Below are positions 1-54,976 of a DNA stretch of 64,000 nucleotides, piece after piece. The number at the start of each line of letters is the position of its first letter. The stretch's first letter is position 1. The position numbers and the translations under genes were made by a program. The notes below the pieces were generated by a model. That model saw only the letters and a list, made by a program, of their open reading frames with translations, had not been told where the DNA came from and made no database searches. The DNA lies in IMG/VR virus record IMGVR_UViG_3300045988_174823; one strand, written 5' to 3'. This DNA comes from a virus.

Positions 1-8
1 TTGGAAAA

Positions 9-842
9 TTACACTTCTACAGCGTCAAAGTCAATATCAAATTTCTTATATACAATGCGCAACTCGGGCACACCATTGATCGGCTTCTTCTTTTCATCAA
101 CACGAGCGTTAAGCGGCCAACGCTTCAAGATGATATCATGCGCACGTTGAACGCGCTCACGACGTTCGTACACATCCTGGAGACCGCCACCTTGTGTAGC
201 TTCCTTGTTCATCTTACTCTGGAGCAAGAACCGTACGAATCGCGCATACACGATGCCGAGATACATACATTTTAACGAATAGTCGATATCACATTTCAAC
301 TCCAACCGCTCATCAAAGTCCAACTCTAACGTGCGAAGACCCTTGAACACGATAAGGTGTGGAATACCGCCGTATTTGAAACGCGGACTAACGTCGATGC
401 AATTCCAATCAAAAGCACTTTTGCCCATGGTGCCATATTCGAAGTCGGTTTTCATCACCTCTCGGTCGAATTCGTTGAAGAATTCAGCCAACTCTTCATG
501 GGTTTTCAACGACAGTCCGCATTTGGCTTCACCGTCAATTGAGTAGAAGAAGTTGGCGATATCGTCATCCATCACCACAACGGGATACCCCTCGCGCAAG
601 TAGGTATTCTTGCAGAAATTGACTACGTAGCTGTAGCCACGATTCGAGGCTGGAAGCACAATGAGGCGTTCGCGCTCATGCCCGGCTTCAACATATTTTT
701 CAACATCCTCTTTTTCTACCACGATGTGGTAATCCACGCCGCCCTTTTTCAACAATCGAGTCGTGACGCATTTAGGGCGGTTTTTAGACACGACAAAGAA
801 TTGACAGTTCATACTCAAAATGGTAAGTCGCCCTCGTACCAA
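9..842 (-). CDS. hypothetical protein; possible GT-A-like (DxD) glycosyltransferase, similar in layout to 18704..19519
   Basis: 277-aa ORF that overlaps the upstream gene by 28 nt. It has an acidic VVVMDDDIANF (DxD-like) motif after an alternating beta/alpha-looking N-terminal half. ORF 18704..19519 has the same layout (FFLDDNVSF plus a C-terminal GG segment). The family call is from motif pattern only. Confidence 0.4.
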   Translation of the reverse strand: MVRGRLTILSMNCQFFVVSKNRPKCVTTRLLKKGGVDYHIVVEKEDVEKYVEAGHERERLIVLPASNRGYSYVVNFCKNTYLREGYPVVVMDDDIANFFYSIDGEAKCGLSLKTHEELAEFFNEFDREVMKTDFEYGTMGKSAFDWNCIDVSPRFKYGGIPHLIVFKGLRTLELDFDERLELKCDIDYSLKCMYLGIVYARFVRFLLQSKMNKEATQGGGLQDVYERRERVQRAHDIILKRWPLNARVDEKKKPINGVPELRIVYKKFDIDFDAVEV

Positions 843-1495
843 ATTTCCTCAGGCGGGTTCTGTTCTATAAAACGTTGATAATTGTCCAGTGTACTTTCTA
901 ACGATGGATAAAACCTCATGAACAACTCCCACTTAACGTCAAACATATCATCACACGATACGCGGCGTTTCATCAGTAGGCTTTCGCTATTATAGCACTG
1001 CACGCAGACCTGACGACGGCCTCGTAGTACGTACGAATAGGGAAAGTCGCGATAGTATTCCGCACCAGACGCTGTATTATACACCACATCATGGATAAAC
1101 TGGTTGAACGGGTGTCCTGCGCCGAGAGGTGCCAGTAACGTATAACCGGGATTGCGGTGCATAAACTTCCGCAAATGATCGCGAAGCGCTTGTTCGGCGA
1201 AATTAAGGCCGTCATTCCCGAATTTGGCGCGTAAGTACGTATAGACGCTCTCATAATTACAGTCCTTGGAATGGGCCTGAAAATCGCTACAACGGACATT
1301 TTCTAACTCCAGGTCCAGACAATCCATGGCTATACCCAGAAAATTGTACAGAAGCCGCTGCTCTGAAACGCGCTTTGGGTCGCTATCTACAGTAAGCACC
1401 CGAACGTCATATTCGGGTGCTACTAAAACGTGACAAGCACTCATCAGGAGATCACCCGCGTGTGGCTCGACACAGAGGTATTTTATTTTTCCCAT
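815..1495 (-). CDS. hypothetical protein; degenerate PIG-L/LmbE-like deacetylase fold (tentative)
   Basis: 226-aa ORF overlapping both neighbours, as in an operon. YLCVEPHAGDLLMSACHVL resembles the xAHPDDExxxxGG motif of LmbE/PIG-L deacetylases, and LGAGHPFNQFIHDV resembles their HPDH motif. Both matches are degenerate. Confidence 0.35.
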   Translation of the reverse strand: MGKIKYLCVEPHAGDLLMSACHVLVAPEYDVRVLTVDSDPKRVSEQRLLYNFLGIAMDCLDLELENVRCSDFQAHSKDCNYESVYTYLRAKFGNDGLNFAEQALRDHLRKFMHRNPGYTLLAPLGAGHPFNQFIHDVVYNTASGAEYYRDFPYSYVLRGRRQVCVQCYNSESLLMKRRVSCDDMFDVKWELFMRFYPSLESTLDNYQRFIEQNPPEEIWYEGDLPF

Positions 1496-2442
1496 GGCCG
1501 TTTGTATATCTTCTCGACGCAGGGGCCGTCCTTCGATACGTCCTCAGCCATACGGCGAATTTCTGGCGTGATAGGCGGGAGCGTTTTCTTACCCATCTTA
1601 TCAGGCAGGAAACCGACACGGACGCTGACATGTGTACACCCCTGACACGGACGGAACCGACGATCGTTGTTGTACAGCATCACGCGGGCAGCATGAAAGC
1701 GCGGATGGTTCCAGAGGTCTTCGATAGGCATGTCGTGGATGTTGGCGATAGGGTACTCGCCGCGAAAGTCGTCGCAGCACAAGCACACCTGGCCGTTCCA
1801 ACGCACATCCAGTTCGCGGAACGGAAAAGTACATCGTTTGTTGTTGAACGAGTCGTCGAGCGGGAACGCTGCGCCACAGTGGTTAGCCAGACGACGCGTC
1901 ATCTTGTTGGTATCGTCTTCGGCGATAGGCGGCAACAGACAGATACGGCGGCCCTGCTTGGGGTAGTAGTACGGAACGCCCGGTTCCAGCGTAACGACGT
2001 TGTATTTCTCGATGTCGATTTTCTCGACGAAATTCCAGTCACCCTTAGCCGTATAGCAGTCCACCAGAATATCATTCATGCCGGCTTCAAAAAGACGGTC
2101 TAAATATTCCGACGTATCCTTGGCGTGGTTCATACCGTACCCGTTGCTGTACATATGAAATACGGCTTTGGGCAGGTGTTTACGGAACGTAGCCACGATG
2201 TCGATGAATGCGGGGTTGAGCGTCGGTTCGCCGTGCATAGCGAATACGAACTTACATTTCCACCCTACGCGGGCTACCTCTGAAGCGATACGCTCGGCGG
2301 TTTCAACGGTCATGAAATTCCACGGCTTAGTGCCTTTTTCGCGCATGCCGTGGAGACCGCAAAACGAACAACCCAGATTACACCCCTCCGTCGGTTCAAT
2401 CTGCATAGTGAACGGAGGGTCTTGTACGATTTTGTTTTTCAT
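1483..2442 (-). CDS. radical SAM enzyme with C-terminal auxiliary Cys cluster (SPASM/twitch-like)
   Basis: EPTEGCNLGCSFCG is a CX3CX2C motif near the N-terminus. FAMHGEPTLNP is a GGEP-like SAM-binding motif. A C-terminal Cys cluster is present (CLCCDD...RPCQGCTH). Confidence 0.8.
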   Translation of the reverse strand: MKNKIVQDPPFTMQIEPTEGCNLGCSFCGLHGMREKGTKPWNFMTVETAERIASEVARVGWKCKFVFAMHGEPTLNPAFIDIVATFRKHLPKAVFHMYSNGYGMNHAKDTSEYLDRLFEAGMNDILVDCYTAKGDWNFVEKIDIEKYNVVTLEPGVPYYYPKQGRRICLLPPIAEDDTNKMTRRLANHCGAAFPLDDSFNNKRCTFPFRELDVRWNGQVCLCCDDFRGEYPIANIHDMPIEDLWNHPRFHAARVMLYNNDRRFRPCQGCTHVSVRVGFLPDKMGKKTLPPITPEIRRMAEDVSKDGPCVEKIYKRPWEK

Positions 2443-4442
2443 TATTTGGTAACTTTAATGTTAAGTTTCACGTTCTTTAACTTTGGGTTCTTAAACTGGC
2501 GTTTGATAGGCTTGATGAAAGCGCGGGTTGCAGGGTCCCAATCAAAGCCATCAGGAACGTGGTTGACTGTACACCGGCAATTGTGAACCACAATTCCATC
2601 GGCAATGTAGCTTTCATCTTCGGCAACTGAAATATTGTACAATTTAGTGTACTTTTTAGATCTCGGAACTTGTTTAATGTATAAAACCTTCACACCACGC
2701 GAAACTATTTGCCCCCGGTGATTTTTGAACAGCCGTTTCAGGCGGTTGTAAACCATATCGCCGTGGTTGTTTATCTCATCTTCAGTGAAGCGGAATGTCT
2801 CATAGCCGTAACACTCCAAAATGTCCTTATCGCGGTTGGAATCGTATTCCGGATCGTTGTGCCATTTTTCGCCGTCAGCCTCCAAAACAATCTTGAGATC
2901 GGGAATCAGTAAATCGGGGAAATACCCCACAACATCGTTGCGGAACTTTCCGTTATTTTTCAAGAACACCCCTGTCTTAGCTTCAACTCCTAACGACTTA
3001 CACAGATACTCCAACTTGCGCTCGATGAACGACCGTTTCTTACCATTGGTAGAATTAGTCTTCTTCAGCGCCTCAGCCATCCAAGGATACTCACCTTGAT
3101 ATTTATCTTCGATAGCTTTTCTTGCTCTGGTGGTAAGTTTCTGACGATCGACAGCACTCATATTGGCATAACGAACAGCCATCTCTTCTTTGACTTTCTT
3201 ACTCATGTAAGAACGGAACTCTGTGTCTTGCCATTGCGAGACGCACTGTTCGCTCCGGTGACAAGCTATACACAGCCCCCTCTCCAAAAGAGTATCGCTG
3301 GCTGAAACGTATATTGGCATAAACGAACCGCATTTTTCACAACAAACACCTTCGATTGTTATCAAATCGCCTGTTTTCAATGAAGCAGCCTCTCGCCATT
3401 CACCGTTTGAAAGAATTGGATGATTTCCTGTTATACGACGCACCTTCCGTACCTTTTTACGCCCTAAAAGGTTTTTGACGGCATAATAGATGTCGTACAG
3501 GGGTTCATCCTTATGATCGTGAATAATCACTTCCGTAACAGGCCTAAACCTCCCTCGGTGAGTCAAAACCATATCCCCTTTCTTTAGAGAAGATATGTTT
3601 CTCCATCCGTTGATGGTGTACACCTTTGTAGCCGGATTATTGAAACAATAGGGGTGCGTTGGGTCAATCGTAGGGAGCCATTCTGCCACCTTACGACCGA
3701 TGTTGTTACCGTTAGCGATAAGGTCTGCCAAACGGAACAGTTTCGGTTTCGAGGTAGGGTCTTCGGGGTCTTCTAAGTACAACTCCCGGCACTTAGCGCA
3801 CGCGCCTGGATAGACGTCGAAATACACTTTGGCGTCAGGACCGTGTTGCTTGAAAATACTTTCGGCACGGCCCACGTTGTAGGCTTCGTGTAGAAGGTAG
3901 TACGCAATACGCAGCCAATCGCGTCCCCAGTCTTGGGTAAGGTTTCCGAGTTCGCTGGCTATATACCGGGCTCCCTTACGGAGTTGAACAGCTTGAATGG
4001 CCTTGTCTTTTATTTGTTGACGTATTTCTGATTGTTGACGGAAATTCGATTTGAGTACAGCGTTGCGTGTTCCGGTGACGATACGATTACCAAGCGACGT
4101 GATGTCGGTATAGGCACGATTCTTGAGGTAGTTGAGCGCGTTTTCTTCCTGTTCGGTAAGCGGAACAAAGTTTCCCGATTTCAAGAACTGGAGAAACTGC
4201 TTGTAATTCATCTTCTTGGCGCGAGTGTCGCCAATTGCTTCGGCCAGTATTCCAAACAAAAAGGCGTGTTCGATGATGCCCTTTGAGTTCTTGTACTTAT
4301 CGACGTTGACCCCTGAAGCTACCAAGATATCAATTTCAGACTGCGTGAGGTAGTCCAATCCGACGTGCTTGGCAATAAAGAGATATTGCCAACGCCGGAG
4401 AATACCGACCATGTCGTCTATTTGACGGTTGTTGAAAATCAT
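2442..4442 (-). CDS. MuF / SPP1 gp7-type head morphogenesis (minor head) protein, interrupted by an intein
   Basis: The extein sequence ...YPGACAKCRELY... plus THPY|CRCTV reconstitutes the C-x2-C ... HPxCRC signature of the Phage_Mu_F family. The ATG at 4442 overlaps the upstream TGA as ATGA. The ORF-track start at 4472 is the alternative. Confidence 0.7.
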   Translation of the reverse strand: MIFNNRQIDDMVGILRRWQYLFIAKHVGLDYLTQSEIDILVASGVNVDKYKNSKGIIEHAFLFGILAEAIGDTRAKKMNYKQFLQFLKSGNFVPLTEQEENALNYLKNRAYTDITSLGNRIVTGTRNAVLKSNFRQQSEIRQQIKDKAIQAVQLRKGARYIASELGNLTQDWGRDWLRIAYYLLHEAYNVGRAESIFKQHGPDAKVYFDVYPGACAKCRELYLEDPEDPTSKPKLFRLADLIANGNNIGRKVAEWLPTIDPTHPYCFNNPATKVYTINGWRNISSLKKGDMVLTHRGRFRPVTEVIIHDHKDEPLYDIYYAVKNLLGRKKVRKVRRITGNHPILSNGEWREAASLKTGDLITIEGVCCEKCGSFMPIYVSASDTLLERGLCIACHRSEQCVSQWQDTEFRSYMSKKVKEEMAVRYANMSAVDRQKLTTRARKAIEDKYQGEYPWMAEALKKTNSTNGKKRSFIERKLEYLCKSLGVEAKTGVFLKNNGKFRNDVVGYFPDLLIPDLKIVLEADGEKWHNDPEYDSNRDKDILECYGYETFRFTEDEINNHGDMVYNRLKRLFKNHRGQIVSRGVKVLYIKQVPRSKKYTKLYNISVAEDESYIADGIVVHNCRCTVNHVPDGFDWDPATRAFIKPIKRQFKNPKLKNVKLNIKVTK
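2580..3647 (-). mobile_element. intein (356 aa) with Zn-ribbon and Vsr/DUF559-like PD-(D/E)xK endonuclease domain
   Basis: The N-terminal splicing block is CFNNPATKVYTINGW...GDMVLT and block B is RITGNHPIL. The C-terminal block is YIADGIVVHN followed by +1 Cys (CRCTV). The insert contains CCEKCG...CIACH and YFPDLLIPDLKIVLEADGEKWHNDPEYDSNRDKDILECYGYETFRFTEDEI. Confidence 0.75.
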
Positions 4443-4963
4443 AACTTTTCGACGTCTTTTCGGGGAATCCATTTCCCAGTGCCACGTGGTGCGCCGCTGT
4501 ACGAAGGTTTACCTGTAAGTTGAATTAACTGTATTTCCGTGTCACCTTCCTTGATGTTTTTCACTGAATACACGCTGCGAACTCTTCCGGCGTAACGGAC
4601 CTTATCGCCAATTTTCACTTTTTCGTAGTGCTTGACGTATTTCTCCACCTTTTGATTTTCATAAAAATCGTTACGTGCAACGCCGTCGTCGCCAATTACA
4701 AGTGCTTCGGTGCCATCGCCAACCGTGAGCGTGTGAATATACGTATCGTCTTGACGACATTCAGAGTTTCGGCGTTGACTGGGATCGGGAAACTTTGCGC
4801 GTCCCGTGTAAAGTGCGCCGACGCGGCCTAACTTTCGGTTCTTAGACGTGTTGGCGTATCGTCCTGTTCTCGAACGCGCCTTTTCAATGAACCCCGCCAC
4901 CACCTGCTCACGCATTGTATTGTGGTGTTCGTGTATTGCTTTTGTGATCGCGTCTATTTCCAT
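4439..4963 (-). CDS. hypothetical protein (shares N-terminal leader and NRxLGRVG motif with 5641..7428)
   Basis: 174-aa minus-strand ORF. Its segment FIEKARSRTGRYANTSKNRKLGRVGALYTG parallels EKARHGVYADNAQNRRLQRVGQEYG in ORF 5641..7428. Confidence 0.55.
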   Translation of the reverse strand: MEIDAITKAIHEHHNTMREQVVAGFIEKARSRTGRYANTSKNRKLGRVGALYTGRAKFPDPSQRRNSECRQDDTYIHTLTVGDGTEALVIGDDGVARNDFYENQKVEKYVKHYEKVKIGDKVRYAGRVRSVYSVKNIKEGDTEIQLIQLTGKPSYSGAPRGTGKWIPRKDVEKL

Positions 4964-5469
4964 AATCTGACCCGTGAAATTTGACTGCGTTTGACAACCA
5001 TGTGTAGGCCGTTGTTTAACTCGATTTCCGCACCTTCATCGCCGGACACCAGAACCTTCCCGAACCTGTAGTAGAAACCTGCCTCGGAGTTTCCAGTCTT
5101 TGCGATAACGGTATTATTCTGGGATAGTTCGGCGAGGTCTTTAATCTTGATGGCGTCATCGTCAAACATCTTCTTCCAAAACCACTCAACATCGGGGCAA
5201 AGACGGATCTCTTCGTCGGGCTGTAACGATACTGTGATCGATGTGCCGGAGGGGTGCATCTTCACTTCACACCTACCATCACTAATGCGTGATAGCGTGC
5301 CGACGTTATACTTCATCTGCCCTCTTTCATCCCTCATACGAGTAACGACCCATACCGGGTATGGTGGTTCTTTCTCCAGCGCGCTATTGACGGCAATCAC
5401 TGTGCCGATATTCCAAACCTGTTCAATCTTCCTTGGCGGTATGGCCCAAATTGCCTTTCTTTGTTTCAT
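4954..5469 (-). CDS. hypothetical protein
   Basis: 171-aa minus-strand ORF packed between neighbours. No recognisable motif. Confidence 0.55.
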   Translation of the reverse strand: MKQRKAIWAIPPRKIEQVWNIGTVIAVNSALEKEPPYPVWVVTRMRDERGQMKYNVGTLSRISDGRCEVKMHPSGTSITVSLQPDEEIRLCPDVEWFWKKMFDDDAIKIKDLAELSQNNTVIAKTGNSEAGFYYRFGKVLVSGDEGAEIELNNGLHMVVKRSQISRVRLWK

Positions 5470-7428: not shown

Positions 7429-7461
7429 GACTTTATAGGTTCATAAGTTTCATTTCCAATA

Positions 7462-7494: not shown

Positions 7495-7500
7495 GCGTTG

Positions 7501-9117: not shown

Positions 9118-9118
9118 G

Positions 9119-10755: not shown

Positions 10756-11040
10756 TTAGCGTGAATATACGTAGGTCTTACGGTCAGCCCACACGAAATT
10801 ATAACTCATATCCCCCTGAGGATACTCGGTAATGGTAATACCATCAGCAGTGGTTTCCCGCTCGATGCGCCATCCTGCCTGCTGTTGACCTGTGCCAATA
10901 GGCGCATAACCGCGGTAGATAACGTCGCCCCCTGAGGCGTCAACAATCGGTTTCGGCATAGCATCGCTCAGCAATTGGACAATGGGCGCGGTGTTTTTCT
11001 CGTTACTCGTCATGGTGTATTGCTTTTTGTAAGTATTCAT
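10756..11040 (-). CDS. hypothetical protein
   Basis: 94-aa ORF between the portal gene and the 541-aa structural gene. The internal ATG at 11013 is an alternative start. Confidence 0.5.
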   Translation of the reverse strand: MNTYKKQYTMTSNEKNTAPIVQLLSDAMPKPIVDASGGDVIYRGYAPIGTGQQQAGWRIERETTADGITITEYPQGDMSYNFVWADRKTYVYSR

Positions 11041-12766
11041 CGAATGCAGCTACGAGAGGATTGGACTCGCGTGCCTTCATAGTTTCTTCTTGATCACCCT
11101 CAGCGTAAAGGTCAAACGGATTTCCTGGCTGAGCGGTATCGTCTTCTTCCTCTTCGTCGCCAGCCACGGGTTGATCAGCAGGGCCTCCAGCTTCCATCCC
11201 CATACCAGCAGCCTCTTCAAACGGATTGCCTCCGCCCATACCGCCCATTGCGGCCTGTTGCTGTTGTTGCTGCTTGGCGCTGATGGCTTGCTGTATAACA
11301 GAGTTTTCGATAGTATCGCCACCCTTTTCTTCGCCGATAGCCGGGAGGTCCCACTTCTCGCGAATTTCGTCCACGGTCTGGAAAGCCTGGAGACGTTTGA
11401 TGTCCATATCCAGTTCCTCAGAGATGGTCATTCCGTTGAGGCCCATGAATACGAACTCGAAGTCGGGGTTGATTTGCTCGACGATGAACTTGTTAACCTT
11501 ACGTTGGATGAATTTCAGCATCGGGTAAAGACCCTTGTCCTTCGACTGCTCCATGCGCTGCTTTTGGCCGTCGCCGAACGTTAGGCCACTGCCATTGGAA
11601 CGCGAAATATCCCAGCCAATTTCCGTAGGGTCAATGCAGAATACTGCACAGGCGATTTTGATCAGATATTCCATCCACGAGTTATACTCCATATCGCGGT
11701 TGTTCTTCTGAAGGTCAACCCAGTCGATATCTCCCTCAACGACAGGCGTCTTCCATGACTGCATAACACCCGATATCATGGCCTGCCATTGCTGCTTGAA
11801 CTGCTGAAGCGAGGCTTCGTTCACGTTACCTTTGATACGCAGAAGACCTTTCGGAGCCGAACCCTGTGAGAAGAAGCGGCGGTTGTACTCGTCGCCCCAA
11901 AGCATCGATGTCACAACGTTGATTAACTCTTCCAACTCAGAGTTTCCGTAACCGTTAGCGTAAATCGACGTGGTCGGATTGCGAATTCCAAAGCACAACT
12001 CCCATGGGTAGAACTGCGCTACCTTGGCCGTCTGGTACACCTGGACGTAGGCCGGATAATAGCCATCAACCTTAGGTCCCCAGTTCTGGCGATCGTCCAT
12101 CATCGCTCCTTCAAAGTAGGGGTTGTTGTACTCGCCATCGAAATACGATTCCGCCAGGCGGAATGTAGCGGCATCAACGGCCTGGAAGCGGACCAGTTTG
12201 CCGCGGCGGTTGCGAATGCACTCAAACGTCATCTGATCGAACGTTAGCGAGTCGTCCACAATCTTACGTATAAATTCGTCAAACTCGTCGCCGTCCCACA
12301 TAGCGGTATCGCCACAGTTGAGGATGAAGTCGGTGATGGAAGACGCAATTTTGCGGTCCTGCGTGTCCATCTTCTGCTCTTGGCCGAACTTAGGCTTGCG
12401 TCGAATAACAAATCCCGTTGAATAGCGGTCGGCCTGCGGTTCGGCGAAGTCAGCTATCTGGTTTTTACGGGTCTTGATAATCGAATTAATAATGGGGGTG
12501 CGACTCATCCGGCGTAACGTTTCGTACGAAAGCGAAAACGGCTTATCCTTATATCCTAAAAACGAGTTGAACTCCAAAGGATCGATCAGATATGCCTTCG
12601 GGGCAACGTTAGCAGGCTTGTGTTGCTGGTTTAATATTTCAGCAGCTTTGAGTATATCAGACGGGCTCTCGCTGCGCATCGCACGCTCTAACAACAGCGA
12701 TTTGCGTATCGTCAAAGCCTGCATGGCGCGTTCCACCGATTCCAATCTTTCTTTCACACCGGACAT
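11003..12766 (-). CDS. portal protein
   Basis: The core block GYGNSELEELINVVTSMLWGDEYNRRFFSQGSAPKGLL is typical of tailed-phage portal proteins. It has a poly-Q and acidic C-terminal tail. The start is either the ATG at 12766 or the GTG at 12778. Confidence 0.7.
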   Translation of the reverse strand: MSGVKERLESVERAMQALTIRKSLLLERAMRSESPSDILKAAEILNQQHKPANVAPKAYLIDPLEFNSFLGYKDKPFSLSYETLRRMSRTPIINSIIKTRKNQIADFAEPQADRYSTGFVIRRKPKFGQEQKMDTQDRKIASSITDFILNCGDTAMWDGDEFDEFIRKIVDDSLTFDQMTFECIRNRRGKLVRFQAVDAATFRLAESYFDGEYNNPYFEGAMMDDRQNWGPKVDGYYPAYVQVYQTAKVAQFYPWELCFGIRNPTTSIYANGYGNSELEELINVVTSMLWGDEYNRRFFSQGSAPKGLLRIKGNVNEASLQQFKQQWQAMISGVMQSWKTPVVEGDIDWVDLQKNNRDMEYNSWMEYLIKIACAVFCIDPTEIGWDISRSNGSGLTFGDGQKQRMEQSKDKGLYPMLKFIQRKVNKFIVEQINPDFEFVFMGLNGMTISEELDMDIKRLQAFQTVDEIREKWDLPAIGEEKGGDTIENSVIQQAISAKQQQQQQAAMGGMGGGNPFEEAAGMGMEAGGPADQPVAGDEEEEDDTAQPGNPFDLYAEGDQEETMKARESNPLVAAFDEYLQKAIHHDE

Positions 12767-12803
12767 AATTGTTTTCACGAGATTTGTTTACCTATAATTG
12801 GTA

Positions 12804-13127
12804 TCAACACAACAGTTTCAAAATGTCGTTCCGCGCTGTTTTACGAATTATCAATGCCTGATGAAGAAGGTCGCCCCATACCGCTATCTGGTAACCATTC
12901 CACGTGTAATAATCCGTTTGATCGTCGTACGAGCCATTCCATTCACCGTCGTGGCGTATGTCAGCGACGAGGCGTTTAAAACGCGCTGTTTCTTCGGTGG
13001 TAAGGGGTGATATGAAAGTGCCGACGACTACTAATCGTGCGGCACTTGTGGAAAGATCATCGGCCAAAATCTGAAAGTCGATGCCCATAAAATCGCCCGT
13101 TTCCAACGGCGTGTGAAAGGTTATCAT
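12804..13127 (-). CDS. hypothetical protein
   Basis: 107-aa ORF with an ATGA overlap with the upstream gene. Confidence 0.55.
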   Translation of the reverse strand: MITFHTPLETGDFMGIDFQILADDLSTSAARLVVVGTFISPLTTEETARFKRLVADIRHDGEWNGSYDDQTDYYTWNGYQIAVWGDLLHQALIIRKTARNDILKLLC

Positions 13128-14134
13128 TTGCCTATCAATTTACAAGCTCTTGGTTCAAATGTAGAGCGTTGTTTACCTTCACCAATCTTCATTTTCCAGT
13201 ACTTTTGATACTCACACAGCCACATTTCCACCTGGTGAAGTGATATCTCGCCCGACGGCGTGACGTAATACCCCGATTCAAGTTTGTGCCAGTGTAGGTA
13301 CGGAAAATCGCCAAACGAAGATAACGCTGCCTGTGCCTCATCACGCAGGCGATATATACCGTCAATTTGACGCTTCAACGATGGGAACACCAACCGCAGC
13401 CCTATGGACGCACCAGGCCCCACATTGGTATAGTCATCCTGGGTAAAGTGCATGAAACGGCGATAGGTATAGCGCGGTATGTAGGTGAAGTCTTGGTAGA
13501 ATTCGTGAGCGATAAATGTCGCCGACGAAGGTAACTCCTGAAGGAACTTGATAATCTGCCCAGGATCGGTAGCCGTCAACACCGTCCGCATCAGTTTACC
13601 TAACTTACGATGAAGCGTAGGCACAACCAAATGCGTGTAGCAGTAGTCGCGCGGTTTTCCAGGTGTGGCCATCGAATTGATGAGGTAGGCCGTGGTGTAG
13701 GGGTTGTTGCCTGTGGCACGGTACGACGTTATCATTTCCGCAAAGCGGTCCTCGTCGTATTGGTTATAATCCGGAATGCCCGCTCCCCAACCGTACTTTT
13801 CACGAGCATATTCAAACGTTTCAGGGTTGTTAAAATACCGGAACACCATCATCTTCCAAACCAGATTCGTCAGCGTTAATTCGTCATCCAGCAAGATATT
13901 ACGTATCTGCCACTGCGAATTACGATCCAGTTCACGATACACATTGGTGAATTTGTAATCGCGTAATATAGGATCATCAGTCCACGGACGCGGTTTCTGA
14001 TCCAGGAACCGTCGCTTCCATATCATTTGGCGCTCAAACATCGTGCGGAAGAACTCGTGATAGTGTTCCTCGCTGACGTCAAGTGCGGCGTCAGGTAATT
14101 TATCAGCCCAAGGGTAATGATCAAATTTCGCCAT
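13124..14134 (-). CDS. conserved phage protein; tentatively aGPT-Pplase-like DNA base hypermodification enzyme
   Basis: 336 aa. The motifs WTDDPILRDYKFTNVYRELDRNSQW and EMWLCEYQKYWK recall the alpha-glutamyl/putrescinyl-thymine pyrophosphorylase family. This is from memory and not verified. Confidence 0.35.
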   Translation of the reverse strand: MAKFDHYPWADKLPDAALDVSEEHYHEFFRTMFERQMIWKRRFLDQKPRPWTDDPILRDYKFTNVYRELDRNSQWQIRNILLDDELTLTNLVWKMMVFRYFNNPETFEYAREKYGWGAGIPDYNQYDEDRFAEMITSYRATGNNPYTTAYLINSMATPGKPRDYCYTHLVVPTLHRKLGKLMRTVLTATDPGQIIKFLQELPSSATFIAHEFYQDFTYIPRYTYRRFMHFTQDDYTNVGPGASIGLRLVFPSLKRQIDGIYRLRDEAQAALSSFGDFPYLHWHKLESGYYVTPSGEISLHQVEMWLCEYQKYWKMKIGEGKQRSTFEPRACKLIGK

Positions 14135-19538: not shown

Positions 19539-22256
19539 CTAACCTAACATATCGAATTTAAATCCGGTAGTCATACGCGACGCCGCCAAGTCGGCCAGCC
19601 AAAACGACGACGAAATATCATCGTGACTACCGACACTCTCCAGCCCTTTTTCGGTAAAGGCAACGGAACCGAGGTCTTGGAAGATGAGGTCCTTGACCTG
19701 CTGAGAATAAACGTTACCTATCGGGATGTGGATTTTGCCGCGCTCGAACAACGTCGAAAGGTGCGGCCATCCGGTCTTCAGGTCGTACTTATCAATTCCC
19801 GTAGTGTGACCAATAACGGGCATACCCTCGGTGTCGGCTGTCTCGACGAATATCTGTTGGAATGTGTTATTCTCCATCACGATAAGGTCAGGCCGGAAGC
19901 GGGAGTTGATACGGCGCAGAACGTTCATCTGCTCGAAAAACTTGGCACCTTTTTCACGGTAGAGGTGCAACAGCCAGCGCTCGTCGGTCAATTCGTCAAT
20001 ACCCCATACGCTAAATACGGCGTAGTCGGCGCCGACGTTGGCTGAAATAGCGAAGTCGCACCCGACAACCACTTTAGAGAACTTAATGGGGAATTCTTCG
20101 CGCGAATCAACCAACGTGTAATTTTCCATCCGCAGTAGCGAACGCGTGAGGATTTCCATCGGGAAGATTGACGACTCGTTGGTAATCGGGCGACAAAGGT
20201 TCTCACGCGAGAAGATGATTGAACCCTGGGTCTCCTTTTTATCCATCAGGTCCTTAAACGACCAACGCTGGGGCCAAAGGATTCGTCCGTCGGGGAAGAT
20301 GGCTGGATACTCGATAACGAACCAACCGTTCTTGGTCTTCAGGTCGCCGTAAAGGTCTTCGGCGTGGAACGGCGTACCGACGACGATAATCTGGCCACCA
20401 GGTACGAGCATATTCATGATTACGGAGTGGAAATAGTCGGTGGACTTATTTCGTTGGAGACTGGAGTAAATGACGTTGTCCTTCAAGCCGTCATCTACGA
20501 TAATCCAATACGGGTGAGCACCACGCACCGACGATCCAAAACCTTTTCCCGTCAAACGTGCTCCGTTACGGCACACGATATTGGTAGCCGACCAGTTGTT
20601 GGCTGTCGATTGGGGAAACAGCCGTTCCTTCAATATCTCGTTTTCCTCAATAGTGCCTTTCAGAATCTCCAAAAGGTCCACACTCTGTTGTAACGAGAAC
20701 GAGAACAAGAATCCGCGATTTGATGAAGCTGCCGCAGGTCGTTTCGAGTAGCGGGTGGTTGACGGCTTCTTGTAACGGTATAGCTGCCACGCGGCGTAGG
20801 CGTTGGAGAAATAGAACGAGTTGTGCGTAACCGTACCGTCACCCAGCACGAAGCGGTGGTCGCCGTCGGTGGTGATAGATATGTAGTCACCTTCACCCGC
20901 GGGCGTGATCTTCAACGACGATACCACCGTAGGGTGTACGCCGTCGATAGTGCCCCAGTCCTTGTGTGACGTCTTGGCGGCCCAGTCGGTTTGGACCTTT
21001 TTACGAGCGATCTTTACTGGGATGCGGTCCAGTTCACCAGAAATAGTCACGCACCACGACGAATAGTCGCGGCCTAACGCTTTACAATACCGCGTTCCAC
21101 CACCCATTCGGGTACAGAAGCCAAGGCTGTCGGCCAAGTTCTTCACGTCACACACCAACTGGTAGTTCGTATTACCGAAGTGATAGCCGCCCTGCCAATA
21201 GTTACCGTCGGAATCGATCAACCCAGCCAACACCTGAAGACGAACTTCTTCGCTGTTGACGAGGTACTGCTCCGGAATGTGCTTATTGTAGAGCAGGTTG
21301 TAACCCTTGAGCATCCTTTCCAGCGGGTTACGCTTACCGCGGCCACGAACGTCAATTCCAAGTGTCACTACCATACCATTTTGGCCATAGTGAAGCCCCA
21401 AGCGCTCGGCGTAAGAGTGTAAGTACTCACACACTTCAGGGTCGGCGGTGGTGATCTTCTGGTTGTTGGAGTTGCCGTCGCCTAACCAGTACCCAAGAAA
21501 ATATGGTTCCAACCCCACGGGCCGCGTGGGGTACTGCACTGCCACCTTGAAACCGCGGTAACGTTCCTTCACCCAGTTCGGGGTCTTGCTTAAAAGCGTC
21601 GGAATATCAATATCCACTATCCGCTTCGACGCTGTAGCGATGGAACCGTTGCGGTCCTTCTCGATCAGCGTACAAATGTGGCGTGAGTTGACGGTGTGGC
21701 TATCACCGCGCGACTGGTCGATACGGTACATCATCGAATCGTGGCCACGGCGCGTAGCAACCACGCGGCGGGGCTTAGAGTCGATGCCCATCAACAAGTC
21801 GCCAACCACAACGTCTTCGACCTTTTTGATAGTTCCGTCGTACATTCGGACGGGGGTTCCGACGGCTTCGCACTTTCCGTGGTCACGCGCTGCGTTGATA
21901 CACAATTTCTTGTGGTTATGGACTAATTCACCCCATTCCAGGTGGTGCCACGACAGCTGGAAGTCAGGGATAACAGAGGTGATGAAATACGTCAAGTTGG
22001 CGCATCGTAGGGTATCTTCTACGACGGCCGAAACGTTTTCTTCGTAGCGGGGTTTGAAGTCAATCGACGCGTCACCCGTGTACATAATACGATATGTGTC
22101 CTCCAACAGAGCGTCGAATATCGTATCAACGTCGTGTATATCGCCACTCATCATCTCATTCAACCCACGCTCGTCCATACCCTCGATTATTTCATCAACG
22201 AGGTCTAAACAAGCCAAACGGTGCGTAACCGAGGGTGCTGTAATCTGAGGTATCAT
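19539..22256 (-). CDS. terL: terminase large subunit, interrupted by an intein
   Basis: The exteins give a Walker A AARDHGK|S, a Walker B YWIIVDDGL, and a C-terminal RNase-H-like nuclease (VVGCDFAIS...). The gene is 905 aa including a 351-aa insert. Confidence 0.9.
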   Translation of the reverse strand: MIPQITAPSVTHRLACLDLVDEIIEGMDERGLNEMMSGDIHDVDTIFDALLEDTYRIMYTGDASIDFKPRYEENVSAVVEDTLRCANLTYFITSVIPDFQLSWHHLEWGELVHNHKKLCINAARDHGKCEAVGTPVRMYDGTIKKVEDVVVGDLLMGIDSKPRRVVATRRGHDSMMYRIDQSRGDSHTVNSRHICTLIEKDRNGSIATASKRIVDIDIPTLLSKTPNWVKERYRGFKVAVQYPTRPVGLEPYFLGYWLGDGNSNNQKITTADPEVCEYLHSYAERLGLHYGQNGMVVTLGIDVRGRGKRNPLERMLKGYNLLYNKHIPEQYLVNSEEVRLQVLAGLIDSDGNYWQGGYHFGNTNYQLVCDVKNLADSLGFCTRMGGGTRYCKALGRDYSSWCVTISGELDRIPVKIARKKVQTDWAAKTSHKDWGTIDGVHPTVVSSLKITPAGEGDYISITTDGDHRFVLGDGTVTHNSFYFSNAYAAWQLYRYKKPSTTRYSKRPAAASSNRGFLFSFSLQQSVDLLEILKGTIEENEILKERLFPQSTANNWSATNIVCRNGARLTGKGFGSSVRGAHPYWIIVDDGLKDNVIYSSLQRNKSTDYFHSVIMNMLVPGGQIIVVGTPFHAEDLYGDLKTKNGWFVIEYPAIFPDGRILWPQRWSFKDLMDKKETQGSIIFSRENLCRPITNESSIFPMEILTRSLLRMENYTLVDSREEFPIKFSKVVVGCDFAISANVGADYAVFSVWGIDELTDERWLLHLYREKGAKFFEQMNVLRRINSRFRPDLIVMENNTFQQIFVETADTEGMPVIGHTTGIDKYDLKTGWPHLSTLFERGKIHIPIGNVYSQQVKDLIFQDLGSVAFTEKGLESVGSHDDISSSFWLADLAASRMTTGFKFDMLG
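20820..21872 (-). mobile_element. intein with LAGLIDADG homing endonuclease in the terminase P-loop
   Basis: It starts at DHGK|CEAVGTPVRMYDG and ends at FVLGDGTVTHN|S. Two LAGLIDADG motifs are present (FLGYWLGDGNS and LAGLIDSDGN). Confidence 0.85.
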
Positions 22257-24492: not shown

Positions 24493-24563
24493 TTGACCCG
24501 GAAGGATTCGAACCTCCAACACCGGAACCAAAATCCGATGTGTTACCATTACACCACAGGTCA
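24493..24563 (-). tRNA. tRNA-Gln (anticodon UUG)
   Basis: Hand-folded 71-nt cloverleaf. The acceptor stem is TGACCTG/CGGGTCA with a U1-A72 pair. The D-arm is GTGT-AATGGTA-ACAC. The anticodon arm is TCGGA-TTTTGGT-TCCGG, giving anticodon TTG. The T-arm is GGAGG-TTCGAAT-CCTTC. No CCA is encoded. Confidence 0.85.
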
Positions 24564-52180: not shown

Positions 52181-54226
52181 CTATTGTAATATCTCTAACC
52201 TTGTAGATTGTGAAGACTGTACGGTCTTCTTTCCAGCGAAATAATTCACACGCCCTGAAACAGCCACAATACGGTTCAACAGCGTAGCTTCGTTTTCCGG
52301 CTGATGAAGCCAAAAGTCAGGCCACAACGTAATCTGGATGATGAGGTCGTTGACCTCCACTTGCAGTACACCGTAAGAATCGCCACCTTTGGTTTGACGT
52401 TCGAATACGTTATTCGCACGACCAACGATACAAACCTCGTCGCCCTCGTGTTTACGCTCAAACTCGGCGGCGGTAACGTACAGCCGAACCATCCGTTTTC
52501 CGAGTCCGTATTCGTTCATCATACGTTCGTAGTCCACCTCGCCGTACCCGGTTAATTCACGCTGTTTGAAGACCCACCAGGCGTTAGTGTGAGCATCAGG
52601 CGAAGTGAATTCGTCGGAAAGCGGTTCACCGCGGCGTTCGAGATATTGCTTGACGATATCCAGACGCTGACGAGGATTGCGTATGTCTTCTACCAGATCG
52701 AACGCTCCAGCCATAATAAGACGCAACACCACAGTACGGTTTATGCCTTTAGGGGCAGAAGTTATGAAGTCCTCAAACGAGAACACTTCGCCGTGTTCAT
52801 CTTTCATGGCTTTCAATAGCGTCAACGCCCGCTCGCCTACTCCCTTGACCTTACCCAGCGAAAAGAAGATACGGTTCGTCTTGGGGTCGCACGTAAAGGT
52901 TTCACCCGAGAAATTGATATCCGGCGGACGGACCTCAATTTCGGCCCCGGTTTTCTTCATCTCCACCAAGCGATACGGGATATCGGACTCCTTCGAGGCG
53001 TACTGAAGCGACGTCGTCCAGAACTCCAGCGGGTAGTTAACCTTAAACCACTGTGACCAGTACGACATCATGGTATAGGCCACGGCGTGCGACTTGTTGA
53101 AGCCGTACCCTGAAAAGGCCAGCAGTTTGCTCCAAACCTCATCAGCCCGCGCTTCAGGTTTCTCAGTCAACCCGCGTTCGCGCAACAAGGTCGCGTATCC
53201 GGCACGGAACTTATCGTGAAACGACTCGATAAGGTCCATATTTTTCTTCTTGATGGCGGTACGCAGGATATCGGATTCCACTGGACTCAGACCGCCTACA
53301 ACGACGGCTTTCATTATCTGCTCCTGGTAGGTATAGAGCGAATAGGTGTCGCGCGTTATTTCCTCCATACCGGGGTCGAATTTAGGCTTCCGGGCGCCAT
53401 TCTTAATTTCAACGAACGTTTCGTGCGCCTTAACATCCATAGGACCCGGACGGAACAACGCCGTCATAGCGATAAGGTCGTCCAGGCTATGCGGTTTGGC
53501 CTCGCGGCAGTAGTTCATCAACCCCATAGCGCCAAACTGGAACACATCCTCGCACCAACCGCGCTGGAAATACCGGAATACCTCCTCGTCGTTGAACGGG
53601 ATGGTGTTGACGTCGATTTGCTCCTTGCGGTTCTTGGCGATAAGTTTCAGAATAGATGAAAATTTATCCAGCTGGTTGAGACCTAAAATATCCTCTTTCA
53701 AGAACCCTGACTTGTCGATATACTTACCCTCCCACTCGGAGACCAGCACACCACCCATGCGTTTCATAGGCATCCACCCGTAAAGGTCGATGGGGTTTCC
53801 GTCTTCGTCTTTCCGGGGTACGATGATAACGGCCGACGGATGAACTGAACCCGTCTTACACTGCGTAAGGGCGTATTTCGTCATGTGCACCAACTCCGGA
53901 TGGTCCTGGACGAAACGGAACAATTCCCGCGACGTAGCGGCGTAGTTGAACAGGTCGCCCCACGTGTATTCTATCTGGTCGTCAATGTCCTTGGTGAGTT
54001 TATTCATCACCGCAAACGGCACGCCCATAACCTTACCAAAGTCCTTCAAACAGGTTTTCAGTTTCATGCGTGTGTACGTACCCACGGAGCAAACGTGGTC
54101 AACGCCGTAACGACGAGCCATGTACTCCTTTACCGTATCGCGGAACGCCACCGGGAAGTCGCAATCCACGTCCGGCATGCTGTCCTGACGAGCAACTTCA
54201 ATCTTTTTTATTTTTAGAATTCTCAT
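52181..54226 (-). CDS. dnaE: DNA polymerase III alpha (DnaE-type), C-terminal fragment (palm catalytic site to OB fold)
   Basis: It begins MRILKIKKIEVARQDSMPDVDCDF, which contains the catalytic PDxDxDF. Also present are LFRPGPM, FNKSHAVAYTMMSYWSQWFKVNYPLEF, the HhH motif GKVKGVGERAL and a C-terminal OB-like region. The ATG at 54226 overlaps the endonuclease TGA as ATGA. Confidence 0.85.
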   Translation of the reverse strand: MRILKIKKIEVARQDSMPDVDCDFPVAFRDTVKEYMARRYGVDHVCSVGTYTRMKLKTCLKDFGKVMGVPFAVMNKLTKDIDDQIEYTWGDLFNYAATSRELFRFVQDHPELVHMTKYALTQCKTGSVHPSAVIIVPRKDEDGNPIDLYGWMPMKRMGGVLVSEWEGKYIDKSGFLKEDILGLNQLDKFSSILKLIAKNRKEQIDVNTIPFNDEEVFRYFQRGWCEDVFQFGAMGLMNYCREAKPHSLDDLIAMTALFRPGPMDVKAHETFVEIKNGARKPKFDPGMEEITRDTYSLYTYQEQIMKAVVVGGLSPVESDILRTAIKKKNMDLIESFHDKFRAGYATLLRERGLTEKPEARADEVWSKLLAFSGYGFNKSHAVAYTMMSYWSQWFKVNYPLEFWTTSLQYASKESDIPYRLVEMKKTGAEIEVRPPDINFSGETFTCDPKTNRIFFSLGKVKGVGERALTLLKAMKDEHGEVFSFEDFITSAPKGINRTVVLRLIMAGAFDLVEDIRNPRQRLDIVKQYLERRGEPLSDEFTSPDAHTNAWWVFKQRELTGYGEVDYERMMNEYGLGKRMVRLYVTAAEFERKHEGDEVCIVGRANNVFERQTKGGDSYGVLQVEVNDLIIQITLWPDFWLHQPENEATLLNRIVAVSGRVNYFAGKKTVQSSQSTRLEILQ

Positions 54227-54976
54227 TTCTTTCTCGGTTTCATTCCATGCCAAAATCCATCGGGGAGAGAGGCGTCCTTGCAAATAGTAGCGTTTATTTC
54301 GCCGTTAGTTATCCTAACTTTGCCTTGCATAGGGTTCGTGTATCCACGTTCATACCTATCGCGTAATTTCTTTCCAAAATCTTTTCGCCGCTCCTCGGGC
54401 CAGCGATTATGCCAGTTAGGGTTATTTTCACCCTTGTATCGCCCTTTCATTTTAGCCGACAAATTTGCCTTTTGTTCAGCCGTCCATCGGTTGCCGTAGT
54501 TTGGATTCTTTTCGCCTATGTATCGCCCTTTTAAGGTCTTCGAAATTTTTTTTCTTATAATCAGTATTATCTAAAGCAATTTGACGTTTTTGATGAATTT
54601 GCTTCATTAATTCTGGATGATTCTTGAATGTCTTTTTAAGCGACCGTGAAACTTTCAAAGCAACCTCTGGAATCAACATGGGTGAGCCGCTTCCAAACTT
54701 ATTAGCCGTACCCGATAAGATATTGTAGCCAATCCTCTTATTGGTTGAATTGAGTTTCTTGATGTATAGCATTCCCCAGGCGTCGAGTTGTAACTGGGTA
54801 TCGCATACGCGGAGCGTTTCACGCTTGAAGTTCTCAGGTCCGTAATGTTTAACCGCGTTCGTCAAAGATACACCACTACCCAAATACCCGTCAAACTCGT
54901 CAGATTCGCAAACATGTTGGCCGATATAAATCTTGCCGTTAATTAGGTTCGTAGTTTTGTAAATTATACCGTACAT
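54223..54976 (-). CDS. GIY-YIG / NUMOD3 homing endonuclease (copy C) inside dnaE, frameshifted at an A8 run
   Basis: The intact N-terminus is MYGIIYKTTNLINGKIYIGQHVCESDEFDGYLGSG...ENFKRE. The frame breaks at the A8 run (54546..54553). Removing one A gives ...KKKISKTLKGRYIGEKNPNYGNRWTAEQKANLSAKMKGRYKGENNPNWHNRW..., which runs into ORF 54223..54462. Confidence 0.75.

What the first reader, a model, noticed from the sequence alone, without database searches (positions are those of the whole stretch)
2580..3647. Intein in the HPxCRC motif of a MuF-type head morphogenesis protein, carrying a Vsr/DUF559-like PD-(D/E)xK nuclease
The 676-aa ORF has clear Hint boundaries: THPY|CFNNPATKVYTINGW...RITGNHPIL...YIADGIVVHN|CRCTV. 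Removing aa 276-631 restores HPYCRC, the signature of Phage_Mu_F/SPP1 gp7 proteins. The insert has no LAGLIDADG or HNH motif. Instead it carries a Zn ribbon (CCEKCG..CIACH) and YFPDLLIPDLKIVLEADGEKWHNDPEYDSNRDKDILECYGYETFRFTEDEI, which matches the Vsr/DUF559 restriction-endonuclease-like pattern (PD...E-x-DG..H...D..R...L...G). Inteins are usually found in replication and terminase genes. This host protein and this nuclease class are both unusual.
Basis: partly seen in the sequence, partly recalled or inferred. Interest (0 to 1): 0.75.

Follow-up and report, generated by a model that had tools for sequence, protein, structure and literature searches.

The report
Mobile intein splitting phage MuF protein
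A phage head-assembly (MuF-like) gene is interrupted by a self-splicing protein element (an intein) carrying its own Vsr/DUF559-type DNA-cutting enzyme, and population data show it moving between related phage genomes; such elements are well known, but this enzyme type built in-frame into an intein has hardly been described.

Summary
Window 2580..3647 (- strand) is an exact 1068-bp in-frame insertion in a 310-aa phage protein. 118 of the 120 closest homologue clusters read HP[YFW]-CRC without interruption, and an intein-free relative aligns base-for-base across the gap.

The insert is a class-1 intein: Cys1, TxxH, terminal His-Asn and +1 Cys. Its model matches solved inteins (Foldseek prob 1.0). 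Between the Hint lobes lie a 4-Cys zinc ribbon, a helical region and a Vsr-like nuclease. Pfam DUF559 scores above its cutoff. A domain profile hits the DUF559 structure 3hrl (E 4e-12) and homing endonuclease I-Bth0305I (E 8e-8), with the catalytic residues conserved.

The host protein is a divergent MuF: no direct Pfam hit, but hhalign gives 96%.

The intein is recently mobile. Two intein alleles (about 83% identical to each other) sit in shuffled phage backbones, with sharp identity breaks at the splice junctions. The nuclease has the lowest dN/dS (0.025).

MuF inteins have been reported since 2004, and this Hint+DUF559 type forms a large, mostly MuF-specific metagenomic family. The in-frame Vsr-like nuclease appears undescribed in the papers I could search.

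Verdict: real, with moderate novelty.

The parts
2442..4442 (-). Whole precursor gene: MuF-like protein plus intein, 666 aa from Met11. The mechanical ORF extends to 4472.
   Evidence: Homologues start at MIF...; ATGA overlap with the upstream ORF; public gene calls give a 666-aa product.
3648..4442 (-). N-extein (265 aa from Met11). It ends ...PTIDPTHPY and contains the MuF-like core (LRIAYYLLHEAYNVGR ... C-x2-C).
   Evidence: hhalign 96.2% to spliced PF04233 domains over extein residues 187-281.
3348..3647 (-). Intein N-terminal Hint lobe (intein aa 1-100): Cys1, block N2 GDxVLTH, block B T73-x-x-H76.
   Evidence: Invariant columns; pLDDT >=90; Foldseek hits to gp41-1, MchDnaB-1, Mtu RecA and PI-SceI inteins.
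3258..3347 (-). Four-Cys zinc ribbon (intein C102/C103-x2-C106 ... C126-x2-C129); presumed DNA-binding or linker module.
   Evidence: The Cys columns are invariant or nearly invariant in 50 relatives. Positions.
3039..3257 (-). Helical region between the zinc ribbon and the nuclease (intein aa 131-203); presumed DNA-recognition region. Residues 175-205 are modelled with low confidence.
   Evidence: helices 127-182. PHROG 9529 aligns across intein aa 101-279.
2712..3038 (-). Vsr-like / DUF559 / EDxHD-type nuclease domain (intein aa 204-312). Conserved residues: E209, D245, E256, D258, H263, R272.
   Evidence: Pfam DUF559 35.9 bits against a cutoff of 20.6. Domain profile vs PDB: 3hrl E 3.7e-12, 3r3p (I-Bth0305I) E 8e-8, PvuRts1I 6e-5, Vsr 0.045. 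Foldseek 3r3p TM 0.73. dN/dS 0.025.
2580..2711 (-). Intein C-terminal Hint lobe (aa 313-356): block F LYNISVAEDESYIA, block G GIVVHN.
2445..2579 (-). C-extein (45 aa), starting with the +1 Cys of CRC. The stop codon is at 2442..2444.

Best explanation
This is a complete, currently or very recently mobile class-1 intein. It is inserted before the first Cys of the H-P-x-C-R-C motif, at the C-terminal end of a divergent MuF (Mu F / SPP1 gp7-type) head-morphogenesis domain, in a roughly 100-kb phage.

The gene is translated as a 666-aa precursor. The two Hint lobes fold together. Cys1 starts an N-S acyl shift, the +1 Cys attacks, Asn356 cyclises, and a 310-aa MuF protein with a restored HPYCRC motif is released together with a free 356-aa intein. 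This splicing pathway is inferred from the residues and the fold.

The free intein, or the precursor, carries an in-frame zinc ribbon, a helical region and a Vsr-like (DUF559 / EDxHD-type) nuclease. In a mixed infection this nuclease would cut the intein-less allele near ...CACCCCTAY|TGCCGNTGT.... Recombinational repair from the intein-bearing genome would then copy the intein in, with a short co-conversion tract. Cleavage is inferred; the resulting population pattern is shown.
For: Exact insertion:
- Homologues and an intein-free contig are colinear across the gap.
- Only 1 of the 120 closest extein clusters carries an intein.

Splicing module:
- C1, T73/H76, H355-N356 and the +1 Cys are conserved.
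- Intein_splicing, PT-HINT, Hint_2 and Vint all hit the insert.
- The AF2 model has Hint-lobe pLDDT of about 90 and matches many solved inteins at prob 1.0.

Nuclease:
- DUF559 scores above the Pfam cutoff.
- A domain profile hits 3hrl, I-Bth0305I, PvuRts1I and Vsr. The I-Bth0305I active-site positions D196 and H213 align to intein D245 and H263.
- Foldseek match to 3r3p, TM 0.73.

Host:
- 26 of 50 full-length intein relatives sit in PF04233 proteins.
- 8 of 8 spliced relatives match PF04233 through the junction.
- hhalign of the extein family against those domains gives 96.2%.

Mobility:
- Intein allele alpha (window, L005, L006) is >=99.6% identical at nt level, while the flanks are about 85-92% identical.
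- Allele beta (L007-L009, about 83% identical to alpha) sits in backbones 97-99% identical to the window.
- The N-extein of L007 is 96-97% identical to that of the intein-free L001 (Fisher p = 4e-10).

Selection and decay:
- dN/dS between alpha and beta is 0.06 overall and 0.025 in the nuclease.
- Relatives with partly or fully deleted nuclease domains (P0125, P0113, P0126, P0127, P0129) fit the homing-cycle decay stage.
Against: - There are no experimental data on splicing or cleavage.
- For this sequence the Intein_splicing score (34.8) is 1 bit below Pfam's cutoff.
- Block F has Asn338 where, as I recall, many class-1 inteins have Asp. This is family-wide, not a lesion.
- The mosaic pattern could in principle arise from ordinary phage recombination with breakpoints near the junctions rather than from nuclease-initiated homing.
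- dS is about 1.1-1.3, close to saturation, so the dN/dS values are approximate.
- The phage encodes DNA-hypermodification genes, which might impede a nuclease.
- The MuF assignment rests on profile-profile and motif evidence. There is no direct Pfam hit, and fold matches to named MuF proteins are weak.
Confidence: 0.86

Rival explanations
1. The intein is splicing-competent, but its nuclease no longer performs homing. It would be inactive, or retained for another role such as DNA binding or nicking. The intein would then spread only by ordinary homologous recombination among co-infecting phages.
For: Mosaicism alone does not prove endonuclease-initiated transfer. Many relatives have lost the nuclease yet persist. 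The phage DNA is probably hypermodified.
Against: All catalytic positions are conserved across the family. The nuclease is the most constrained part of the intein (dN/dS 0.025). Identity breaks coincide with the splice junctions in several independent contigs. Presence is sporadic among close alleles.
Confidence: 0.1
2. The insert is not a true intein. It would be a Hint/BIL or pre-toxin-HINT-type autoprocessing module that cleaves the MuF protein into pieces rather than ligating them. From my own knowledge, HINT domains play such a role in polymorphic MuF-toxin proteins.
For: Pfam PT-HINT hits the N-lobe (25.7 bits). Some relatives are long multidomain MuF fusions.
Against: A +1 Cys nucleophile and a terminal His-Asn are present. 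Removing the insert restores a strongly conserved motif and the full 310-aa length of 118 intein-free clusters. The 45-aa C-extein is conserved and continues the MuF-like domain. The best structural matches are bona fide inteins.
Confidence: 0.03
3. The segment is an ancestral domain lost in most relatives, or an assembly chimera, rather than an inserted mobile element.
For: None specific. This is listed as the null hypothesis.
Against: The identical 666-aa protein is found on 4 independent public contigs. The intein also occurs in further contigs from other samples. The same intein family sits at the same residue in MuF proteins as little as about 30% identical in their exteins. GC and GC3 are lower than in the exteins. 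Intein and flank histories are decoupled.
Confidence: 0.01

Closest known systems
Intein in protein F (Mu gp30) of the Mu-like prophage of Methylococcus capsulatus Bath (PMC517821, 2004)
   Same: An intein interrupting a MuF head-assembly protein. That paper already proposed that head morphogenesis depends on splicing.
   Different: That intein was described as lacking a recognisable endonuclease and as degenerate. Its insertion site was not compared here. The present intein has a complete nuclease and shows signs of recent mobility.
Actinobacteriophage minor-capsid (IPR006528) inteins with non-canonical homing endonucleases (bioRxiv 10.1101/2025.01.02.630785)
   Same: The host protein class is the same (phage head morphogenesis / MuF-type minor capsid). 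That preprint also describes Vsr-like homing endonucleases (HHpred match to 3R3P) encoded within inteins, and shows mobility through intein/extein phylogenetic conflict.
   Different: There, the Vsr-like and LAGLIDADG nucleases are encoded on the antisense strand of the intein. Here the nuclease is translated in-frame as part of the intein polypeptide, preceded by a zinc ribbon. The phage lineage is also different: about 100 kb, with relatives among Chryseobacterium and Bacteroides phages.
EDxHD homing endonucleases: I-Bth0305I (PMC3239194) and the free-standing Vsr-like genes of 'fractured genes' with split inteins (PMC2677866)
   Same: Vsr-like nuclease fold with a conserved E/D/H/D-type active site. 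Bipartite layout: DNA-binding region followed by a C-terminal nuclease. Phage habitat.
   Different: I-Bth0305I is encoded in a group I intron and has NUMOD/HTH N-terminal motifs. The fractured-gene enzymes are separate ORFs between split-intein halves. Here the domain is fused in-frame inside a contiguous intein and is closer in sequence to DUF559 (3hrl, E 4e-12) than to I-Bth0305I (E 8e-8). This arrangement matches the in-frame integration step that Dassa et al. proposed in their model.
Canonical LAGLIDADG inteins, e.g. PI-SceI, and the TerL P-loop intein in this same window (20820..21872)
   Same: The same logic: a Hint splicing domain split by an in-frame homing endonuclease, inserted at a conserved functional motif.
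   Different: A different nuclease superfamily (Vsr-like/DUF559 instead of LAGLIDADG), and a structural/assembly host protein rather than a nucleotide-handling enzyme.

Membership tests
Intein (class 1) | In-frame insertion that is absent from orthologues and whose removal restores a conserved host motif | tested here: met
   There is an exact 1068-bp gap relative to L001, and 118 of 120 homologue clusters read HP[YFW]CRC.
Intein (class 1) | Catalytic residues: Cys/Ser1, block B TxxH, C-terminal His-Asn, and a +1 Cys/Ser/Thr | tested here: met
   C1, T73, H76, H355, N356 and +1 Cys. Block F position 4 is Asn across the family.
Intein (class 1) | Hint fold | tested here: met
   AF2 model with Hint-lobe pLDDT of about 90. 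Foldseek prob 1.0 to the gp41-1, MchDnaB-1, Mtu RecA, Ssp DnaB and PI-SceI inteins.
Intein (class 1) | Pfam Intein_splicing (PF14890) at or above the gathering score | tested here: inconclusive
   34.8 bits against a cutoff of 35.8 for this sequence. 45 of 50 full-length relatives match at E<=1e-3.
Intein (class 1) | Protein splicing that yields ligated exteins | not testable with these tools
   Requires expression followed by SDS-PAGE or MS.
DUF559 (PF04480) / Vsr-like restriction-endonuclease-like superfamily | Profile match above the curated cutoff | tested here: met
   35.9 bits against a cutoff of 20.6. 46 of 50 relatives match. Domain profile vs the DUF559 structure 3hrl gives E 3.7e-12.
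EDxHD homing endonucleases (I-Bth0305I type) | Vsr-like catalytic fold with conserved acidic and His active-site residues | tested here: met
   3r3p: hmmsearch E 8e-8, with I-Bth0305I D196 and H213 aligned to D245 and H263. Foldseek TM 0.73. E209, D245, E256, D258, H263 and R272 are invariant in 22 sequences.
EDxHD homing endonucleases (I-Bth0305I type) | N-terminal NUMOD/HTH DNA-binding region; stand-alone ORF in an intron or between split-intein halves | tested here: not met
   No NUMOD or HTH Pfam hit. A Cys4 zinc ribbon and helices are present instead. The domain is in-frame inside a contiguous intein.
EDxHD homing endonucleases (I-Bth0305I type) | Site-specific cleavage of the element-free allele, driving homing | not testable with these tools
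   Indirect support only: decoupled intein and flank histories and purifying selection on the nuclease.
Phage_Mu_F (PF04233) / SPP1 gp7-type head morphogenesis protein | Direct Pfam match of the spliced extein | tested here: not met
   No PF04233 hit even at E<=1. PHROG 595 matches only at E 2e-4.
Phage_Mu_F (PF04233) / SPP1 gp7-type head morphogenesis protein | Profile-profile homology and conserved core motifs (E..A.N.G, C-x2-C, P-x-H-P-x-C-R-C) | tested here: met
   hhalign 96.2%, E 2.3e-9, against 44 spliced MuF-motif domains, 8 of which were confirmed as PF04233. Motifs are visible.
Phage_Mu_F (PF04233) / SPP1 gp7-type head morphogenesis protein | Location in the head-assembly module near the portal and terminase genes | tested here: met
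   The portal gene (11003..12778) and TerL gene (19539..22256) lie upstream on the same strand. The arrangement is the same in L001.
Phage_Mu_F (PF04233) / SPP1 gp7-type head morphogenesis protein | Fold similarity to annotated MuF proteins | tested here: inconclusive
   BFVD matches to 'phage head morphogenesis domain' proteins reach only prob 0.6-0.8, E>0.2. The strong hits are intein-bearing relatives of the same family.

The most novel reading that the evidence does not exclude
This window holds a working example of an intein architecture that the searchable literature does not describe: a contiguous intein with an in-frame zinc ribbon plus a Vsr-like (DUF559/EDxHD) homing endonuclease. 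It belongs to a large metagenomic family that specialises on the H-P-x-C-R-C motif of MuF proteins, at two adjacent insertion points. This would be the in-frame integration stage that Dassa et al. (2009) proposed in their model. In addition, the host phage encodes thymidine/cytosine hypermodification enzymes, so the nuclease may have to recognise and cut hypermodified DNA. It shows detectable similarity to PvuRts1I-type modification-dependent nucleases.
Probability: 0.4. Interest if true: 0.6.

Novelty: new variant of a known kind. Interest (0 to 1): 0.5.

Why it matters
- It adds a further nuclease superfamily to those known to be fused in-frame into inteins. By my reading of the literature, these were LAGLIDADG and HNH.
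- It supplies a natural, apparently active example with intein-plus, intein-minus and two divergent intein alleles in nearly isogenic phage backbones. That is an unusually clean system for measuring homing and co-conversion.
- It shows that a virion-assembly protein, rather than a DNA enzyme, is the main target of a whole intein family.
- Practically, small monomeric Vsr-like homing enzymes and new Cys-dependent splicing domains are of interest as tools.
- Unrecognised inteins of this kind inflate and confuse annotation of MuF and minor-capsid genes in viromes.

Tried and rejected
- Megablast of window 1-12000 against GenBank phages found nothing, so no close cultured relative exists.
- A single-sequence phmmer search of the intein against PDB gave only marginal hits (E 0.2-1). 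A domain profile was needed.
- Pfam and PHROGs on the spliced extein did not identify MuF. Fold search of an intein-free homologue against BFVD gave only weak matches to named MuF proteins.
- I looked for a co-conversion tract against the 83%-identical intein-free contig L001. It was uninformative because the flanks are uniformly diverged. Closer contigs (L005-L009) were needed.
- tblastn of the nuclease region against 50,697 phage records found one hit, a helicase intein in Vibrio phage 1.088.O. Free-standing close relatives in cultured phages were therefore not found.
- Rfam found no intron anywhere in the window.
- Antisense ORFs inside the intein (67-92 aa) were considered because of the antisense nucleases reported in actinophages. 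I set them aside because the in-frame domain accounts for the nuclease.
- dN/dS for the C-terminal Hint lobe could not be computed because synonymous sites are saturated.
- Literature searches for 'intein + MuF' and 'intein + Mu protein F' were noisy or empty.
Full report
**1. What is there**

The minus-strand ORF 2442..4472 encodes 676 aa. Residues 276-631 map exactly to nt 2580..3647. They begin CFNNPATK, end GIVVHN and are followed by CRC. Deleting them gives ...DPTHPY|CRCTVNH....

All homologues start at the ORF's Met11 (MIF...). That ATG (4442) overlaps the upstream stop as ATGA, and public gene calls for the identical sequence give 666 aa. The precursor is therefore 666 aa and the spliced product 310 aa.

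**2. It is a precise insertion**

- The in-silico-spliced protein aligns in one tblastn piece across the junction to 16 GenBank phages: Chryseobacterium phage MA9V-3 at 36%, SP-10-like Bacillus phages at about 32%, and Bacteroides DAC/SJC phages at about 25%.
- It has 287 metagenomic homologues, and most of the 120 listed are about 310 aa.
- Among the 120 best clusters, 118 read HP[YFW]CRC without interruption and only one (P0113) carries an insert.
- The nearest intein-free contig, L001 (about 83% nt identity), aligns to window 4451..3646 and 2579..1 with nothing in between. The empty site reads CACCCCTAC|TGCCGCTGT.
- The insert has lower GC (43.6% against 48.2%) and lower GC3 (47.8% against 53-57%) than the exteins.

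**3. The splicing domain**

- Pfam gives Intein_splicing (34.8 bits, 1 bit under the cutoff), PT-HINT, Hint_2 and Vint on the insert.
- In an alignment with ten relatives, C1, T29/H30, T73, H76 and P77 are invariant, and H355 and N356 are nearly so. This is the class-1 set, with +1 Cys as the nucleophile.
- An AlphaFold2 model has a mean pLDDT of 76, and about 90 over residues 1-100 and 320-356.
- The model matches gp41-1, MchDnaB-1, Msm DnaB, Mtu RecA, Ssp DnaB, PI-SceI and hedgehog Hint structures at Foldseek probability 0.98-1.0.

**4. The inserted nuclease**

Three elements lie between the Hint lobes:

- A Cys4 zinc ribbon (C102/C103-x2-C106 ... C126-x2-C129), whose Cys columns are conserved in 50 relatives.
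- A helical region.
- A domain that scores above the Pfam cutoff for DUF559 (35.9 against 20.6).

A 22-sequence profile of this domain gives the following PDB hits:

| Structure | E-value |
|---|---|
| 3hrl, DUF559 structure | 3.7e-12 |
| 3r3p, catalytic domain of homing endonuclease I-Bth0305I | 8e-8 |
| PvuRts1I | 6e-5 |
| Vsr | 0.045 |

The two residues mutated in the 3r3p crystal (D196A, H213A; PMC3239194) align with intein D245 and H263. E209, D245, E256, D258, G259, W262, H263 and R272 are invariant. Foldseek independently matches 3r3p, with TM 0.73 normalised on the target. No LAGLIDADG or HNH domain is present.

The nuclease therefore belongs to the Vsr-like branch of the restriction-endonuclease fold. 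It is closest to DUF559 and clearly related to the EDxHD homing enzymes. It lacks their NUMOD/HTH N-terminal region.

**5. The host protein**

The extein has no direct Pfam hit. The MuF assignment rests on three lines of evidence:

- Of the 50 closest full-length relatives of the intein, 26 lie in PF04233 (Phage_Mu_F) proteins, 2 in Phage_min_cap2 proteins and 6 in proteins that also hit Phage_portal.
- Eight such relatives, spliced in silico, all match PF04233 above its cutoff, straight through the junction to profile position 111-112 of 112.
- hhalign of the extein-family profile against 44 such spliced domains gives 96.2% probability, E 2.3e-9. It aligns LRIAYYLLHEAYNVGR with ARTE..A.N.G, the C-x2-C motif, and P-x-H-P-x-C-R-C.

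The gene lies downstream of the TerL and portal genes on the same strand. Fold search of an intein-free homologue gave only weak matches to annotated head-morphogenesis proteins. Its strong hits were two intein-bearing UniProt relatives, annotated automatically as 'Hint domain-containing protein' and 'Intein splicing domain'.

I therefore call the host a divergent MuF-type protein. This is well supported but not a formal Pfam member.

**6. How common is this intein type?**

A phmmer search of the intein against 1.84 billion representative proteins gives 1,527 hits at E<=1e-3, 420 at <=1e-10 and 91 at <=1e-30. Many align over the full 356 residues.

Of 50 such relatives, 46 have DUF559 and 45 have Intein_splicing.

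Of 141 relatives with both ends present:

- 86 sit at H-x-x|C-R-C/S, the same site as here.
- 12 sit two residues further on, at H-x-x-C-R|C.
- The rest sit at variant or other sites.

By contrast, the nuclease region has a single hit in 50,697 GenBank phage records. It lies within an intein in an SF2 helicase of Vibrio phage 1.088.O. The type is thus abundant in metagenomes and almost absent from cultured phages.

**7. Evidence of recent mobility**

IMG/VR and Logan contigs provide a natural experiment.

- Allele alpha (window, L005, L006) is 99.6-100% identical at nt level.
- Allele beta (L007, L008, L009) is 99.6-100% identical within itself.
- Alpha and beta are about 82-83.5% identical to each other.

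The flanks tell a different story:

- L006 shares the alpha intein, but is only 85-88% identical to the window in the downstream radical-SAM gene and 92% in the C-extein.
- L008 and L009 carry the beta intein, yet are 98-99% identical to the window in the proximal N-extein and downstream gene.
- L007 (beta) has an N-extein 96-97% identical to that of the intein-free L001.
- In L005, identity falls from 99.7% (2 mismatches in 780 nt) to 90.4% (13 in 135 nt) right at the C-terminal splice junction (Fisher p = 8e-10).

Between alpha and beta, dN/dS is 0.06 overall, 0.09 in the N-Hint lobe, 0.10 in the zinc-ribbon and helical region, and 0.025 in the nuclease. dS is about 1.1-1.3, so these values are approximate.

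Relatives at the same site show stepwise loss of the nuclease: P0125 has a 257-aa intein, P0113 228, P0126 197, P0127 193 and P0129 137.

Sporadic presence, decoupled histories, a constrained nuclease and decayed relatives together form the classic homing-cycle picture. Cleavage itself is inferred.

**8. Relation to what is known**

- An intein in Mu protein F was noted in the M. capsulatus prophage in 2004 and described as lacking an endonuclease (PMC517821).
- A 2025 preprint lists minor-capsid (IPR006528) proteins as new intein hosts in actinophages, all with non-canonical nucleases. It states that Vsr-like nucleases had been reported with inteins only in split-intein 'fractured genes'. It adds cases encoded antisense (10.1101/2025.01.02.630785).
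- Dassa et al. 2009 (PMC2677866) proposed in-frame integration of such nucleases as a step in their model.
- Taylor et al. 2011 (PMC3239194) characterised I-Bth0305I.
- One genome paper mentions in passing a 'DUF559-containing' intein gene of the EDxHD family in Thermosynechococcus (PMC9403480).

The components and the logic are therefore known. The in-frame zinc-ribbon plus Vsr-like/DUF559 architecture, and its specialisation on the MuF motif, appear undescribed in the papers I could search. They are, however, plainly visible in databases with automatic domain annotation.

**9. Verdict**

The finding is real and correctly interpreted. Its rarity was overstated with respect to the host protein and to sequence databases, but the nuclease architecture is a new variant of a known kind. 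The locus is also a good experimental system. Interest is moderate (0.5).

Noticed in passing
window 19539..22256 (-); intein about 20820..21872: The large terminase gene carries a second, canonical intein of 351 aa at the P-loop (ARDHGK|CEAVG...TVTHN|SFYF). It has LAGLIDADG motifs and Pfam Hom_end_hint, Hom_end and LAGLIDADG_3 hits. The spliced TerL would be 554 aa.
   Followed up: partly
window 52181..56667 (-): The DnaE/Pol III alpha gene is split into two ORFs (54964..56667 and 52181..54283). The break falls between FERFLNETRV and SMPDVDCDF. The gap holds a 166-aa ORF with a GIY-x10-YIG motif (54476..54976) and a 79-aa ORF (54223..54462). No Rfam group I intron reached threshold. I did not resolve whether this is an intron, a 'fractured gene' or a truly split polymerase.
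   Followed up: partly
window 9..842, 1483..2442, 13124..14134, 56669..57886 (all -): A DNA-hypermodification toolkit is present: a TET-associated glycosyltransferase (TAGT), a radical SAM/SPASM enzyme immediately downstream of the MuF gene, a 5-hmdU DNA kinase, and a thymidylate-synthase-like protein. The phage DNA is therefore probably hypermodified, which bears on what its homing endonucleases must cut.
   Followed up: no
relatives P0157, P0160, P0163, P0167, P0169, P0175, P0184, P0185, P0208, P0212, P0220, P0234: A second insertion point for the same intein family lies two residues downstream in the MuF motif (H-x-x-C-R|C), using the second Cys of CRC as the +1 nucleophile.
   Followed up: partly
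relatives P0019, P0022, P0023, P0073, P0097, P0115, P0131: Some members of this MuF-like family carry a C-terminal extension of about 170 aa. In most of them (P0022, P0023, P0073, P0097, P0115, P0131) it matches Pfam PF18823 'InPase' (inorganic pyrophosphatase). P0131 combines this extension with a full intein.
   Followed up: no
L004 (Vibrio phage 1.088.O, MG592463.1) 1558..4260: This 900-aa SF2 helicase, annotated only as a 'P-loop NTPase', contains an unannotated intein (about aa 136-492). Its internal region is 26% identical to the zinc-ribbon, helical and nuclease region studied here.
   Followed up: partly
window 2445..2579 vs L005-L009: The 135-nt C-extein is the most mosaic segment (80-97% identity in all pairings), and it does not follow either the intein or the backbone grouping. 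This suggests repeated short co-conversion tracts on the 3' side of the insertion site.
   Followed up: partly
window 24493..24563 (-): A single tRNA gene is present (Rfam RF00005, 64.6 bits).
   Followed up: no
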